This document shows, one piece after another, positions 32,390-45,950 of a stretch of DNA of 64,000 nucleotides. Under the pieces are notes generated by a model, which made no database searches, had not been told where the DNA came from, and was given only the letters and a program-made list of their open reading frames with translations. The position numbers and the translations under genes were made by a program. Each line of letters opens with the position of its first letter. Position 1 is the stretch's first letter. This DNA comes from Candidatus Poribacteria bacterium (GTDB taxonomy: Bacteria > Poribacteria > WGA-4E > PCPOR2b). The stretch is taken from NCBI GenBank assembly GCA_965208675.1, contig OZ242351.1, forward strand, positions 3,904,001 through 3,968,000, written 5' to 3'.

Positions 32390-33138
32390 AATATCGATAG
32401 TCAACAAACCCATAAAGCCGCGGGGAATGCGTTCAATGCCATATTTCGATTTGCCGTATTGTCAAGGCAGATGCTTCACGGGCACTTCTGCGACCCGAAA
32501 GCCGTTTTGGTGAGCTAAAATCGGCAGATAGCGATGGCGATCTCCGTACACCAAGAGTTCCTAATCACTTGGCGTCTATAGGCTTTGAATCCACAGTTGA
32601 TGTCGTGGAGACTCAGACGCGTAAACCAACAGACCACTCGATTAAAGATTCGTGAGAGAGTGATTTTCGACCAAGAATCCTGACGATCCATTTTCCAACC
32701 GGACACGACATCACATCCTTCCTCGATTTTCGCTAGGAGGCGCGGGATTTCGTCCGGATCGTCTTGCAAGTCTGCATCCATCGTGATTATGACATCTCCC
32801 GTTGCATGGGCGAAACCTGCCGCTAGGGCAGTTGCCTTGCCCATGTTGCGTCGAAACTGAATGACAACGACTTGGGATGCTGACGCCCCCGCGTTACGCT
32901 CAAATTCTTGGATTGAGAGTTTCGATCTACCTATTGCATCCGTCCTATCTTGATGGAGGTGATAAATCTCCTGCATAACCTCGAAGGAACCATCCGTGCT
33001 TCCGTCGTCCACGAATATAATCTCATACGGCGCCCCAATTATCCCCATCACATCTCGAATTTGCTGGTAAAGGGGCCTTAGGGTCAATGCTTCGTTAAAG
33101 ACTGGAATGATAATGGAGAATTCTCTCAGTGCTTTCAC
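32390..33138 (-). pseudogene. GT2 polyprenol-phosphate glycosyltransferase (ArnC/DPM1-like), frameshifted and truncated
   Basis: IIIPVFNE, DDGSTD, DADLQD and HDINCGFKAYR motifs. After a frameshift near 32560 homology continues as ELLVYGDRHRYLPILAHQNGFRVAEVPVKHLP*QYGKSKYG with an in-frame TGA. The C-terminal TM helices are missing. Confidence 0.85.
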
Positions 33139-33143
33139 AACGC

Positions 33144-33836
33144 TTACTTTAACTGCTGTCGAATCACTTCAATATTCTTGCGTCGGTCTTCCAGCGATGC
33201 TTTACGAAATTTGCCCGGTAATCGCTGTGACCAGCTCGCATGAGCACCGTCAACATCAGGTCGGTCTCGATTTACTCCCATCTGACGACTTCTGATTGAT
33301 GCATTATCTTCCGCGGTACTATCAGCCGTTTGGTTGGGTTTATCATTCGATAACCAACTGAGGTCATTGAGAAATTGTATTGATGGGATTTTGAGGGTCA
33401 AATCCTCTCCCGAAATTTTCAATACGACCTGCTTTGATTTGATATTTTTAATCGTTGCAATTCCAATGTTTTGACCTAGACCCACGTAATAAGTGCGTGC
33501 AGAACTTCTTTCCGCCAAAATGGCTTTAGCAGCTTTACCATGGGATTCAACCCAAGTTGCAATTAGAATGTACTCAGGTTGCTGTTTCGGCGCCTTCCAA
33601 CCCAACGGGCGAAACAGATTATTCTCAACGATAACACGATAGAAATCGCGACTCCGGTCATTTTGTGAATTTGTTCTTTCTGGAATGGTTCTTCGTCGCT
33701 TGGATTGATGGTCTTCCGCACGCGCAGTGTTGATTTGAAGCATTAAGTCAAACGGTATCGCTACAGAAGATACTAGACACACCAGAAAAATTGCCAAAAT
33801 CCTACTGTTTTCGTTTTCTGTCTTGATTGGTTTCAT
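33144..33836 (-). CDS. Hypothetical membrane-anchored protein, GspC/PilP HR-domain-like
   Basis: N-terminal TM, then NNLFRPLG followed by LIAT...AKAIL...YYVGLGQNIG...IKNIKSKQVVL. The family call is tentative. Confidence 0.55.
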   Translation of the reverse strand: MKPIKTENENSRILAIFLVCLVSSVAIPFDLMLQINTARAEDHQSKRRRTIPERTNSQNDRSRDFYRVIVENNLFRPLGWKAPKQQPEYILIATWVESHGKAAKAILAERSSARTYYVGLGQNIGIATIKNIKSKQVVLKISGEDLTLKIPSIQFLNDLSWLSNDKPNQTADSTAEDNASIRSRQMGVNRDRPDVDGAHASWSQRLPGKFRKASLEDRRKNIEVIRQQLK

Positions 33837-34274
33837 TCGGGTTTCCTTTTCAACTCTTTTATCCGTATCGGGCGGGCAAAACCACTTCGCCTCCGTTTTT
33901 ACCGGTTATGAATCTACCTGGTATATCAGCCTGCTATCGAATAGATTTGAATTGGTTCAACGATTTAACATGTGGATTACGCTGTGTCGGCTGTGCAACT
34001 ATAATTCTTCAATGTTGTTTATCGAACTTCTAATTCTCATTACAATCACTTGAAGTCGCATAAACTCCCATCAAGACCCTTCAATTGAAATCTTCATACC
34101 AATAAAAAAATGTGACTTACGTTTACGCTAGTGATATTTAACCGCTTGATGTCGCAGAAAAATTGTGGGTGAGCGAAGGAGGATTTGTGCTCTCGTCTGA
34201 AAATTCCATCTTGAACCGAATCAGCTGCCCTTAACGGAGAGCCAGCAATTTATGACTTCTCTATTAACATGTTA

Positions 34275-44885: not shown

Positions 44886-45010
44886 GTACAAAATCATGCT
44901 TCAATTTGGGCTCGGCTTTGACTCGGAAAGCCTTACGTATCAAGGGATACGGGCATTTTAAAGTTTTTTTCAGACTGGAACGGCAACGTCCTGGCGAGAT
45001 TTGGAAAGGG

Positions 45011-45128
45011 GTGCGCCAAATGTCCCCACGATTCGGAAAAATTGGGGTCAATAAGCGAGGAAACCCTTGCCAGGCAAGGGTTTGGGGGGTTGTGCGCCAA
45101 AAGTGTGCAATAGCGCCAAATGGCGCAC
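45011..45128. promoter_or_regulatory. Putative enhancer (UAS) sites for a sigma54 activator
   Basis: GCGCCAAA occurs three times (about 45013, 45094, 45113), including the palindrome GCGCCAAATGGCGC and the NtrC-box-like TGCGCCAAAAGTGTGCA, 125-245 bp upstream of the promoter. Confidence 0.55.
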
Positions 45129-45207
45129 CCCTTTGAAGACTTGGTTTTCGTTAAAAGAGAGGGTTGGTACAGATTAGAGAGCGGGGTGGGGAAAAGCAAA
45201 CGCCGAT

Positions 45208-45950
45208 TTACTCATCGTCCGATGATGTTTTGGAACGGTTTAGACGCTTGTTTAACGCATTTCTCGACATTCCCAAGAGTTTAGCTGCAAGCGTCTGGTT
45301 GCCATCGGCGCGCTTAAGGGCTTCGGTAATCATCAGTTGTTCTACTTCTTTCAAATAGGGAAGTGCGGCTAGCGCCGACAATCCTTCCGCAAAATTGCTT
45401 CCTTTAACCGTCGTATCCTCGTGGGAAACTATAGACTGCTCGCCAATCGCTCGCTGGAAAGATGCTATGGAAAGTACACCCCCTTTGTGCCGGCTGACAG
45501 CGTCTAGTACCATGCCTTCAAGTTCTCGGATATTGCCCGGGAAGTGGTAGGTTCCAAGCAAGGTGTAGAGTTCGGGTGGAACCGTGGGCGTTTCCTTTTC
45601 TAGTTTCTTAGCGGCGATTTCCAGAAAATGCGATACCAATAACGGGATATCGCCCGCCCGCTCGCGAAGCGGCGGCAGGTGAATATGATGAGTTTTCAAG
45701 CGGAAGTAGAGGTCGCTGCGAAAAGTTTCGGACTCTCTCAGGAATTGTATATCTCGATTCGTAGCAACAACTATTCTTGCGTTATTTGTTCGCGGGAAAT
45801 CGTCGCCAAGCGGGTAGTAAGTTCTTTCCTGCAAAAAACGCAGCAGTTTGACCTGAGACTCCAGGTGCAGGTCGCCGATTTCATCAAGGAAGAGCGTGCC
45901 GTTTGACGCGCGTTCAATCAATCCCTTGCGAGGCGTTTCCGCCCCGGTGG
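45208..45950 (-). pseudogene. 5'-truncated sigma54-dependent transcriptional activator (NtrC family)
   Basis: TLFLDEIG, QVKLLRFLQE, DLYFRL, FPGNIREL and a Fis-type HTH. Homology begins mid-GAFTGA (TGA only); Walker A and the sensory domain are absent. Confidence 0.85.

What the first reader, a model, noticed from the sequence alone, without database searches (positions are those of the whole stretch)
32390..45950. Candidate undescribed sigma54-controlled system for extracytoplasmic maturation of a double-glycine, disulfide-rich protein
Seen in the sequence: a co-oriented minus-strand run of a sigma54 activator remnant, enhancer palindromes, a -24/-12 promoter, a Trx/CcdA redox fusion, a signal-peptide + GG-leader + 12-Cys precursor, a signal-peptide-bearing C39 peptidase, two coiled-coil proteins, an FGE-domain lipoprotein, a GT-C, a GspC-like protein and a GT2. 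Much of it is visibly more AT-rich than the flanks. Established: C39 domains cleave after GG leaders but normally act in the cytoplasm, fused to ABC exporters (PCAT); CcdA/DsbD with thioredoxin handles disulfide chemistry outside the cytoplasm. Inference: this is a Sec-exported, RiPP-like pathway in which leader removal, disulfide formation or isomerisation and possibly glycosylation happen in the periplasm, with no PCAT. I do not know of a described system with this layout.
Basis: partly seen in the sequence, partly recalled or inferred. Interest (0 to 1): 0.9.

Follow-up and report, generated by a model that had tools for sequence, protein, structure and literature searches.

The report
Exported C39 protease maturation cassette
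Many Poribacteria carry a gene cassette that pairs a small, cysteine-rich secreted protein bearing a classic double-glycine leader with a leader protease that is itself exported, so the leader is probably removed outside the cytoplasm without the usual ABC exporter.

Summary
On the minus strand of 32.2-46.0 kb lie a sigma54-activator fragment, repeated upstream sites, a -24/-12 promoter, a UshA-like/glutaredoxin/CcdA-like membrane fusion, a 150-aa precursor (hydrophobic N-terminus, double-glycine leader, 12-Cys core), an exported LolA-like/C39/3xDUF1573 protein, an FGE-like lipoprotein, a GT-C and others.

The cassette recurs in Poribacteria: modules of the protease in 95 of 176 genomes of the phylum. 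Of 30 distinct loci with a C39 module, 22 (25 by eye) hold a neighbouring Cys-rich ORF with the leader; 0 of 9 C39-less sister cassettes do, though this is about one evolutionary contrast. A sigma54 site precedes 12 of 18 fusion genes against 5 of 355 other ORFs. This is the genome's only C39 domain (no PCAT). A complex model puts the GG at the catalytic Cys/His (0.64; best control 0.02), possibly by likeness to solved complexes.

This copy is a 13.8-kb strain-specific mosaic insertion. Cleavage, redox coupling, glycosylation and biological role are inferred, not shown. FapD is the nearest precedent. Verdict: new variant of a known kind.

The parts
32195..45983 (.). 13.8-kb strain-specific insertion holding the whole cluster
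   Evidence: In same-genus genome G002 the flanking DUF1611 gene and TPP-enzyme gene abut (window 32194 joined to 45984); G001 and G003 hold other cargo at the same site.
45208..45969 (-). Fragment of a sigma54 activator (C-terminal half of the AAA+ domain, lid, HTH_8)
   Evidence: Pfam; 98.4% identical to residues of an intact 496-aa paralogue at genome 3320153-3321643; part of the duplicated segment.
42779..45930 (.). 3152-bp segment duplicated from genome 3320921-3324072 (97.7% identity): activator 3' part, upstream sites, promoter, fusion gene
   Evidence: blastn of the window against the rest of the genome.
45013..45127 (-). Candidate activator-binding sites: palindrome TGCGCCAtttGGCGC and two half sites
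   Evidence: Sequence; 3 of 9 TTTGGCGC of the window lie here; the same positions hold other repeats in orthologous loci.
44869..44884 (-). -24/-12 (sigma54-type) promoter TGGCATAGAAATTGCG
   Evidence: conserved upstream of 12 of 18 orthologous genes against 5 of 355 other ORFs; rpoN present in the genome.
42772..44808 (-). 678-aa fusion: signal peptide, degenerate UshA-like domain, glutaredoxin-like CxxC domain, six-helix membrane domain with two invariant Cys (CcdA-like)
   Evidence: 72-84% identical across 11 orthologues.
42182..42634 (-). 150-aa precursor: hydrophobic N-terminus (1-36), double-glycine leader (37-53, ...LLTPNTMSQIVGG), 97-aa core with 12 Cys
   Evidence: no Pfam or NCBIfam family.
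39611..42007 (-). Exported three-module protein: LolA/LolB-like (aa 46-320), C39 double-glycine protease (352-478), three PapD/ASH-type Ig domains = DUF1573 with invariant CxC (498-798); likely true start M20 (41950)
   Evidence: (779-aa gene call).
38777..39490 (-). 237-aa membrane-anchored coiled-coil protein (CC1)
   Evidence: paralogue of CC2; no homologue in the related loci; no detectable relation to the c6 family.
37451..38784 (-). IS element (orfA 38416-38709, orfB 37577-38401)
   Evidence: HTH_Tnp_1 and HTH_21/rve/rve_3; at least 5 full-length copies at 97-99.6% elsewhere in the genome. 'IS3 family' is my label from this two-ORF layout.
36941..37429 (-). 162-aa coiled-coil lipoprotein (CC2; lipobox ISGC by eye)
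36103..36951 (-). 282-aa FGE-domain lipoprotein without the catalytic cysteines
   Evidence: Pfam 213 bits; against human FGE, Cys336 aligns with Ala and Cys341 falls in a gap; orthologue in 19 fetched loci.
34275..36113 (-). 612-aa GT-C fold glycosyltransferase (PMT_2/PMT)
   Evidence: orthologue directly downstream of the protease gene in 6 fetched loci.
33144..33836 (-). 230-aa GspC/PilP-like protein
   Evidence: T2SSC E 0.0021 and GspC_delta E 0.0015, both under the cut-offs; a 282-aa paralogue (E 6e-15) lies directly upstream of a secretin gene.
32396..33138 (-). GT2 (ArnC-like) fragment, premature stop and 3' truncation

Best explanation
This is one copy of a cassette widespread in Candidatus Poribacteria that makes a small, disulfide-rich secreted protein. 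A sigma54 promoter, fed by an NtrC-type activator (here supplied in trans by the intact paralogue at 3.32 Mb), drives the operon. The 150-aa precursor enters the Sec pathway through its hydrophobic N-terminus (cleaved signal peptide or anchor: not decided). Outside the cytoplasm its double-glycine leader is bound by the C39 module of the exported LolA-like/C39/3xIg protein and cut after VGG, giving a ~97-aa core with 12 Cys. The co-transcribed fusion protein (glutaredoxin CxxC domain on a CcdA-like membrane domain) and the invariant CxC of the first DUF1573 domain probably serve disulfide isomerisation or reduction of this cargo. The GT-C, with a polyprenyl-phosphate GT2, may glycosylate it. 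Shown here: gene content, conservation, exported location by sequence features, absence of a PCAT. Inferred: cleavage, redox coupling, glycosylation. The role of the product (competition protein or envelope/surface protein) is open.
For: Cassette conserved: gene order activator / fusion / FGE-like / small Cys-rich / protease (/ GT-C) recurs in the 20 fetched loci and in further loci among the 34 found with the fusion protein, all titled Poribacteria. Modules of the protease match 95 of 176 genomes of the phylum, 17 of 31 genera. Leader: 18 of 19 small proteins fit M-x4-G-[GATS]; in 26 aligned precursors -12 is L in 24, -7 M in 25, -4 I/L in 19, -2 G in 25, -1 G in 25; leader identity 0.39 against 0.20 for the core. 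Cys count after the GG is even in 17 of 18. Protease: C357, H431, D447 invariant in 24 sequences; fold Z 19.4, rmsd 1.4 A over 122 residues to the LahT double-glycine protease 6mpz. Export: all fused and split forms begin with a signal peptide, lipobox or anchor and have no later membrane segment. No PCAT: PF03412 has 1 match in the genome, this gene. Association: 22 of 30 C39-bearing locus groups (25 by eye) have a leader-bearing Cys-rich ORF, 0 of 9 C39-less type-B cassettes; the strict motif occurs in 70 of 1893 ORFs of 80-200 aa. Complex model of C39 domain with leader: score 0.64, best of 3 controls 0.02; the mark was reached by 58 of 80 solved complexes and 2 of 110 mismatched pairs; runs agree in at least 84% of contacts, partner pLDDT at least 55; interface holds leader residues 37-42, 44, 47-55 and C39 residues 353-358 and 430-432. 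Sigma54. Redox: CxxC and both membrane Cys invariant; CxC in 43 of 43 distinct Ig3 modules; DUF1573 selenoproteins carry UGC (table passage of PMC9312934); three loci without the fusion hold a BlaR1-M56/AhpC-TSA-thioredoxin protein instead.
Against: No biochemical or expression datum. The C39/leader covariation is about one evolutionary contrast: on the Ig3 tree the 9 C39-less modules form a single clade (support 100). Five C39-bearing locus groups show no leader-bearing ORF (L024, L025, L029, L043; L032 has an odd one) and three leader hits lie in loci where no C39 was seen (L034; L053, whose contig ends there; own locus C, a truncated cassette with TDG in place of GG). The complex pass may come from likeness to solved C39-leader complexes. 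The membrane domain is not matched by Pfam DsbD_TM and aligns to the genome's DsbD only at probability 24%. The fusion gene tree and the Ig3 tree disagree and other cargo (PD40 propellers) follows the fusion gene in L034 and L035, so the link of fusion and cargo may be positional. This copy carries scars: truncated activator, IS between operon genes, GT2 fragment. The core fold could not be predicted (pLDDT 57.1).
Confidence: 0.65

Rival explanations
1. The redox fusion gene is a conserved, sigma54-controlled envelope gene in its own right, and variable cassettes merely insert downstream of it (a platform or hotspot); it does not act on the Cys-rich protein.
For: It is far more conserved (72-84%) than the cassette genes (protease 24-41%). 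Its tree interleaves cassette types that are deeply separated on the Ig3 tree. PD40-propeller cargo follows it in L034 and L035. Cassettes exist without it (L024, L025, L029, L030, L033). In the window it arrived as a separate 3152-bp duplicate joined to low-G+C cargo.
Against: The only conserved sigma54 promoter lies upstream of it, so the cargo is co-transcribed. Cargo of both cassette types is Cys-rich and secreted. Three loci without it carry another thioredoxin-fold membrane protein at the same place. The Ig3 partner always keeps a CxC.
Confidence: 0.3
2. The family is real, but this particular copy is a decaying, silent mosaic.
For: Activator truncated, GT2 truncated with a premature stop, IS inserted between operon genes, whole cluster absent from the closest genome. 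A second own-genome cassette (locus C) is clearly degenerate.
Against: Fusion, precursor, protease, FGE-like and GT-C reading frames are intact and full length against orthologues. An intact activator 98.4% identical over the shared part exists with the same upstream sites. The IS lies between genes, not within one.
Confidence: 0.25
3. The exported C39 module acts on something else, as proposed for FapD, or only as a chaperone; the GG stretch of the small protein is removed by another protease or not at all.
For: FapD is an active periplasmic C39 whose substrates lack a canonical leader (passages of PMC5557850). Five C39-bearing locus groups show no leader-bearing ORF.
Against: The leader matches the classical spacing at -12, -7, -4, -2, -1 and is twice as conserved as the core. 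The catalytic triad is invariant. The complex model puts the GG at Cys357/His431. C39-less cassettes have no such leader.
Confidence: 0.1

Closest known systems
Peptidase-containing ABC transporters (PCAT1, ComA, LahT) with double-glycine leader peptides
   Same: Same protease fold and catalytic residues (Z 17-19.4; E 1e-08 to 6mpz). Same leader logic: hydrophobic -12, -7, -4 and GG at -2, -1 (the classical consensus is recalled). Conserved leader with variable core.
   Different: No ABC transporter domains. The protease has its own signal peptide and is flanked by a LolA-like domain and three Ig domains. The substrate has a hydrophobic Sec-type N-terminus before the leader. The cargo is a ~97-aa 12-Cys protein. 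No PCAT in the genome.
FapD, periplasmic C39 peptidase of the Pseudomonas Fap amyloid system
   Same: A Sec-exported, catalytically active C39 working in the periplasm (passages of PMC5557850).
   Different: FapD is a single-domain protein whose substrate is unknown and whose operon lacks canonical leaders. Here a canonical leader substrate is encoded next door. NCBIfam C39_FapD scores 18.4 bits against a cut-off of 330. No amyloid or FapF-type genes here.
DsbD/CcdA with periplasmic thioredoxin-fold partners (DsbC isomerase pathway; recalled)
   Same: A membrane domain with one Cys in each of two helices fused to a periplasmic CxxC domain. Both Cys align with those of the genome's DsbD. Stand-alone relatives are named CcdA by JGI.
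   Different: Not matched by Pfam DsbD_TM. Glutaredoxin-type rather than thioredoxin-type domain. An added, probably inactive, UshA-like domain. Dedicated to an operon rather than housekeeping.
Type II secretion, GspC/PilP-secretin contact
   Same: A weakly GspC-like protein in the cassette has a paralogue directly upstream of a secretin gene. T2SS exports folded, disulfide-bonded periplasmic proteins (recalled).
   Different: Present in only a few cassettes (W, L017, L047, L058). No other T2SS gene in the cluster. The link to export is a lead only.

Membership tests
Peptidase C39 (double-glycine protease) | Match to PF03412 over the curated cut-off | tested here: met
   84.3 bits against 22; 88.6 bits in the genome search.
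Peptidase C39 (double-glycine protease) | Catalytic Cys, His and Asp kept | tested here: met
   C357, H431, D447 invariant in 24 homologues; the Cys aligns with that of 6mpz.
Peptidase C39 (double-glycine protease) | C39 fold | tested here: met
   Z 19.4, rmsd 1.4 A, 122 aligned to 6mpz_B; Z 18.5 to ComA 5xe8.
Peptidase C39 (double-glycine protease) | Cleavage after Gly-Gly of a leader | not testable with these tools
   Only a complex model: 0.64 against best control 0.02.
PCAT (peptidase-containing ABC transporter) | C39 fused to ABC membrane and ATPase domains, acting at the cytoplasmic face | tested here: not met
   No ABC domains in the protein; N-terminal signal peptide and no other membrane segment; this is the single C39 match in the genome.
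Double-glycine leader peptide | Hydrophobic -12, -7, -4; Gly -2; Gly/Ala -1 | tested here: met
   L 24, M 25, I/L 19, G 25, G 25 of 26. The reference consensus is recalled.
Double-glycine leader peptide | Leader at the very N-terminus, no Sec signal | tested here: not met
   A hydrophobic stretch precedes the leader in all 26; modelled as helix 6-36.
FapD-type periplasmic C39 | NCBIfam NF058616 over its cut-off | tested here: not met
   18.4 bits against 330.
DsbD/CcdA membrane domain | Match to PF02683 | tested here: not met
   No match at E up to 10 for the membrane part; the genome search finds only the canonical DsbD and one weak site elsewhere.
DsbD/CcdA membrane domain | One redox Cys in each of two pseudo-symmetric helices | tested here: inconclusive
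   hhalign probability 24%, E 8e-4, but NPCAF aligns with TPCVY and LVCTGQV with APCTGPA; both Cys invariant.
Formylglycine-generating enzyme | The two catalytic cysteines (human Cys336, Cys341) | tested here: not met
   Ala at the first, gap at the second in the alignment to 1y1e; the domain itself matches at 213 bits.
UshA / 5'-nucleotidase metallophosphoesterase | GD and GNHE metal and catalytic motifs | tested here: not met
   GN and GPQD at the aligned places, in an alignment of only E 8e-4; NF041198 scores 100.4 bits against a cut-off of 275.
LolA/LolB-like fold | Open beta-barrel fold | tested here: met
   Z 15.6 (209 aligned, rmsd 4.4) to 9tp6_A and 15.5 to 9tpm; Pfam LolA_like only E 0.0023.
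Sigma54-dependent operon | GG-N10-GC promoter, activator gene, rpoN | tested here: met
   The adjacent activator is truncated; an intact paralogue lies at 3.32 Mb. Transcription was not tested.
RiPP | Enzyme that modifies the core peptide, guided by the leader | tested here: inconclusive
   No recognised RiPP enzyme family among the cluster's proteins; only disulfides and possible glycosylation are in view.

The most novel reading that the evidence does not exclude
A Sec-dependent, ABC-transporter-independent branch of double-glycine leader biology. A modular exported protease (LolA-like / C39 / CxC-bearing Ig domains) with a dedicated membrane redox partner matures hypervariable, disulfide-rich ~10-kDa proteins in the periplasm. 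These would be a new class of secreted competition or surface proteins of Poribacteria, carried on swappable cassettes under sigma54 or ECF control.
Probability: 0.45. Interest if true: 0.8.

Novelty: new variant of a known kind. Interest (0 to 1): 0.7.

Why it matters
Double-glycine leaders and C39 proteases are textbook partners of ABC exporters working at the cytoplasmic face. The one characterised periplasmic C39, FapD, still has no defined substrate. Here a canonical leader sits behind a Sec-type N-terminus, next to an exported C39, in a genome with no PCAT, and the pairing is kept across deep divergence. If cleavage is confirmed, this gives a defined enzyme-substrate pair for extracytoplasmic C39 activity. 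It would also mean that genome mining for bacteriocin-like or signalling proteins should stop requiring a PCAT. It further gives testable roles to DUF1573 (invariant CxC), to a widespread glutaredoxin/CcdA-like membrane family, and to a catalytically dead FGE-like lipoprotein, in a phylum with no cultured member (the last point is recalled).

Tried and rejected
A single-protein scan of genome contigs with the protease found no relative; the genome search and the fusion-protein alignment then did.

The idea that C39 and the leader were gained or lost together many times was rejected. The fusion-gene tree needs at least 7 changes (quick tree; the careful search did not finish). The Ig3 tree puts all 9 C39-less modules in one clade, so cassette swapping explains the pattern.

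No homology of the window's coiled-coil protein to the c6 family of other cassettes (hhalign probability 0.4%).

No detectable homology between type-A and type-B Cys-rich cores (probability 4%).

The precursor model was too poor (pLDDT 57.1) to search for folds, so it was not searched.

The membrane domain is not found by Pfam.

Expression: no RNA holder listed; read laying was not used.

Naming: of 10 relatives looked up, one carries an informative name, 'DUF1573 domain-containing protein [Candidatus Poribacteria bacterium]', and two are 'hypothetical protein'. None of the 35 precursor relatives carries a name.

Whether the architecture occurs outside Poribacteria could not be settled. The profile search returns many 420-530-aa full-length matches among the best 150 (not counted exactly), without taxonomy.

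Papers: 0 hold C39 with DUF1573 and 0 hold Poribacteria with 'peptidase C39'. The 4 papers with DUF1573, 14 for and 2 for one search were seen as listings only, apart from passages of PMC9312934 and PMC5557850. One search gave only unrelated uses of 'C39'. My recollection of C39/VKOR/thioredoxin fusions in Bacteroidota therefore stays untested. Supplements were not consulted.

The search of earlier findings and the protein atlas were closed.
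Full report
WHAT IS THERE. The minus strand of 32.2-46.0 kb holds, in order of transcription:
- A 253-aa fragment of a sigma54 activator (45208-45969). It covers only profile positions 79-167 of 168 of the sigma54-interaction domain, plus lid and HTH_8.
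- A palindrome TGCGCCAtttGGCGC and two half sites (45013-45127).
- A -24/-12 element TGGCATAGAAATTGCG (44869-44884).
- A 678-aa fusion protein (42772-44808).
- A 150-aa Cys-rich ORF (42182-42634).
- A 798-aa C39 + DUF1573 protein (39611-42007).
- A coiled-coil membrane protein (38777-39490).
- A 1334-bp IS (37451-38784; HTH_Tnp_1 and rve ORFs).
- A coiled-coil lipoprotein paralogue (36941-37429).
- An FGE-domain lipoprotein (36103-36951).
- A GT-C (34275-36113).
- A weakly GspC-like protein (33144-33836).
- A GT2 fragment (32396-33138).
G+C is 0.414-0.436 in the cassette proper against 0.50-0.51 in the flanks.

THIS COPY IS A MOSAIC INSERTION.
- Window 42779-45930 is a 97.7% identical duplicate of genome 3320921-3324072. 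At that locus a PAS-PAS histidine kinase and an intact 496-aa NtrC-type activator precede the same upstream sites and a 98.4% identical fusion gene. The truncated activator is thus a duplication scar. A nearly identical DNA-binding domain is available in trans.
- The IS has at least 5 full copies elsewhere.
- The GT2 is cut at its 3' end.
- In the closest genome (G002) the DUF1611 and TPP-enzyme genes that flank the cluster abut (window 32194 joined to 45984). G001 and G003 hold unrelated cargo at the same site. The whole 13.8 kb is therefore strain-specific cargo at a variable site.
- The low-G+C part is closest to a locus of another genus: L014, with protease 41%, FGE-like 65% and GT-C 56% identity.

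THE CASSETTE IS CONSERVED.
- Homologues of the protease occur in 32 of 61 related genomes. With a profile they occur in 95 of 176 genomes of the phylum, 17 of 31 genera.
- In 20 fetched neighbourhoods the order activator / fusion / FGE-like / ~230-aa membrane coiled-coil protein / small Cys-rich ORF / protease (/ GT-C) recurs, with variants.
- A scan with the fusion-protein alignment gave 34 loci, all titled Candidatus or uncultured Poribacteria. They carry the same kind of neighbours.
- The fusion protein is 72-84% identical across 11 orthologues; the protease only 24-41%.

SIGMA54 CONTROL. A site matching at least 9 of 11 consensus positions lies within 300 nt upstream of 12 of 18 fusion genes or gene fragments, against 5 of 355 other ORFs in the same loci. 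The six without are two 3' halves of split genes, a gene at a contig end, a shorter variant, one preceded by another cassette, and one next to an ECF sigma gene. rpoN is present. In the window alone the pattern is not above chance; its conservation is what carries the claim. Activators differ between lineages: NtrC-type with receiver, 336-aa PspF-like, or ECF sigma factors.

THE PRECURSOR.
- Eighteen of 19 small proteins of the first set share M-x4-G-[GATS] some 45-55 residues in.
- In an alignment of 26 (A3), -12 is L in 24, -7 M in 25, -4 I/L in 19, -2 G in 25 and -1 G in 25. Glu is commonest at -8 and -9. This is the spacing of the classical double-glycine leader (recalled).
- Mean pairwise identity is 0.39 in the leader, 0.20 in the core and 0.19 in the hydrophobic N-terminus.
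- The core is 79-105 aa with 8-12 Cys, an even number in 17 of 18. It has a shared Cys framework.
- No Pfam or NCBIfam family matches.
- Many N-termini end in A-x-A-like sites (by eye), so a cleaved signal peptide followed by a ~16-20-residue propeptide is as likely as an anchor. The model gives a helix over residues 6-36.

THE PROTEASE.
- An AlphaFold2 model (pLDDT 75.3, pTM 0.39) and structural alignment resolve three modules. Residues 46-320 are LolA/LolB-like (Z 15.6 to P. gingivalis LolA3). Residues 352-478 are C39 (Z 19.4, rmsd 1.4 A over 122 residues, to the LahT protease solved with its leader). Residues 498-798 are three PapD/ASH-type Ig domains (Z 13.0 to the VesB Ig domain).
- C357, H431 and D447 are invariant, as are C541 and C543.
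- The modules occur fused (~800 aa) or split: LolA-like ~350 aa; C39+Ig ~480 aa; Ig-only lipoproteins ~340 aa. Each form has its own signal peptide, lipobox or anchor and no later membrane segment. The C39 module is therefore extracytoplasmic by sequence features.
- PF03412 has one match in the genome, this gene, so no PCAT is present.

ASSOCIATION OF C39 AND LEADER. I pooled 57 loci into 44 distinct groups.
- Thirty groups hold a C39 module. Of these, 22 hold a small Cys-rich ORF with the leader, by a leader HMM or a strict motif. Three more (L014, L057, L060) do by eye, with AG or with the hydrophobic residue at -3. L024, L025, L029 and L043 show none, and L032 has an atypical one.
- The strict motif occurs in 70 of 1893 ORFs of 80-200 aa.
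- Nine cassettes have separate LolA-like and Ig3 genes and no C39 (L054, L055, L058, L059, L063-L067). All hold a small Cys-rich ORF with a plain signal peptide and no leader.
- Three leader hits lie where no C39 was seen: L034; L053, where the contig ends; and own locus C, a truncated cassette with TDG for GG.
- On the Ig3 tree the nine C39-less modules are one clade (support 100, branch 1.92). On the fusion-gene tree they are interleaved with the others. The two cassette types are thus old lineages swapped beside a conserved gene, and the covariation counts as about one contrast.
- Their cores are not detectably related.

COMPLEX MODEL. The C39 domain (aa 345-485, 24-row alignment) with precursor residues 30-72 (26 rows) scored 0.64; the best of 3 controls scored 0.02. 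The mark was reached by 58 of 80 solved complexes and 2 of 110 mismatched pairs. The runs agree in at least 84% of contacts and the partner's pLDDT is at least 55. The interface holds leader residues 37-42, 44 and 47-55 (including M47, I50, G52, G53) and protease residues 353-358 and 430-432, which include the catalytic Cys and His. Since C39-leader complexes are solved, the pass may reflect likeness only.

REDOX PARTS.
- The fusion protein has a signal peptide followed by a UshA-like domain. That domain shows GN and GPQD where 5'-nucleotidases have GD and GNHE, in an alignment of only E 8e-4.
- Next comes a glutaredoxin-type domain with invariant C-Q/H-K-C.
- Last is a membrane domain over 90% conserved, with invariant NPC and VCTGQ. 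This domain is not found by Pfam. Its stand-alone relatives (~50% identical; 645 hits) are often named CcdA by JGI. It aligns both Cys with those of the genome's DsbD, at low probability (24%).
- All 43 distinct Ig3 modules keep a CxC (CGC in type B). DUF1573 selenoproteins have UGC there (table passage of PMC9312934), which points to a redox-active site.
- Three loci without the fusion gene have a BlaR1-M56/AhpC-TSA-thioredoxin/TPP-unrelated TPR protein at the same place.

OTHER PARTS.
- The FGE-like lipoprotein lacks both catalytic Cys of FGE. It also resembles PorK (E 3.7e-16) and is probably structural.
- GT-C genes follow the protease gene in 6 fetched loci. An STT3-like gene does so in L057.
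- The GspC-like protein has a paralogue directly upstream of a secretin gene. This is a lead to an outer-membrane route, not evidence.

COMPARISON WITH WHAT IS KNOWN. The system works like the leader-protease step of PCAT systems. It is not a PCAT, because the defining ABC fusion and cytoplasmic location were tested and not met. FapD shows that a C39 can act in the periplasm (passages of PMC5557850), but it has no defined substrate and no canonical leader. No paper in the library joins C39 with DUF1573, or Poribacteria with peptidase C39. I rate it a new variant of a known kind.

WHAT REMAINS OPEN. Cleavage itself, the order of signal-peptidase and C39 steps, the direction of electron flow, glycosylation, the fate and role of the product, expression of this scarred copy, and occurrence outside Poribacteria.

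Noticed in passing
window 37451-38784: A 1334-bp two-ORF IS (HTH_Tnp_1 + HTH_21/rve/rve_3) sits between the two coiled-coil paralogues. At least 5 full-length copies at 97-99.6% and several partial ones lie elsewhere in the genome, so the element looks recently active.
   Followed up: partly
window 32194 / 45984 (site between the DUF1611 gene 30954-32165 and the TPP-enzyme gene 45976-47727): Variable insertion site within the genus: empty in G002 (~135 bp between the genes), ~4.2 kb of other cargo in G001 (L071), ~8.2 kb in G003 (L072).
   Followed up: partly
L074 (genome 3317001-3334000), L075 (3099001-3111000), L076 (2802001-2818000): Three further related loci in the same genome. Locus B: PAS kinase, intact activator, fusion gene, LolA-like, FGE-like, GT-C, GT2, with no C39 or leader ORF. 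Locus C: truncated, with a leader reading TDG instead of GG. Locus D: kinase, activator, small ORFs, GT-C, GspC-like, GT2, without the fusion gene. Homologous promoter/UAS regions (74-84% identity) occur at five or six places in the genome.
   Followed up: partly
L034 12058-21497 and L035 12058-16008: In same-genus genomes a paralogous fusion gene (85-87% identical) is followed by two to four ~600-630-aa PD40 (TolB-like) beta-propeller proteins. In L034 there is also a leader-bearing 165-aa, 14-Cys ORF with no C39 nearby.
   Followed up: partly
L055 5485-6144, L058 13911-14570, L064 14037-14726, L065 10252-10947: Type-B (C39-less) cassettes hold a ~220-230-aa membrane-anchored protein with CxxC...CxxC pairs near its C-terminus (zinc-ribbon-like by eye). 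It is absent from type-A cassettes.
   Followed up: no
L077 2607-6694 (genome 1360607-1364694): A 282-aa paralogue of the cassette's GspC-like protein lies directly upstream of a 1008-aa secretin (six Secretin_N stretches plus Secretin). This is the position of PilP or GspC.
   Followed up: partly
window ~45060-45085, and the same place in L022 and L026: A conserved inverted repeat CCCTTGCC-TGGCAAGGG followed by T's lies between the upstream activator sites and the promoter. Its function is unknown (terminator of the activator gene or a bending site).
   Followed up: no
window 29464-30840: One 458-aa ORF joins a HAD-type hydrolase domain to a DAHP_synth_1 (KDO-8-phosphate synthase type) domain. 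It may be a KdsC-KdsA fusion; that name is my reading.
   Followed up: no
P0127: An 893-aa protein from NCBI joins DUF1573 with Redoxin/AhpC-TSA/Thioredoxin_8 domains. This is another link between DUF1573 and thiol redox chemistry.
   Followed up: no
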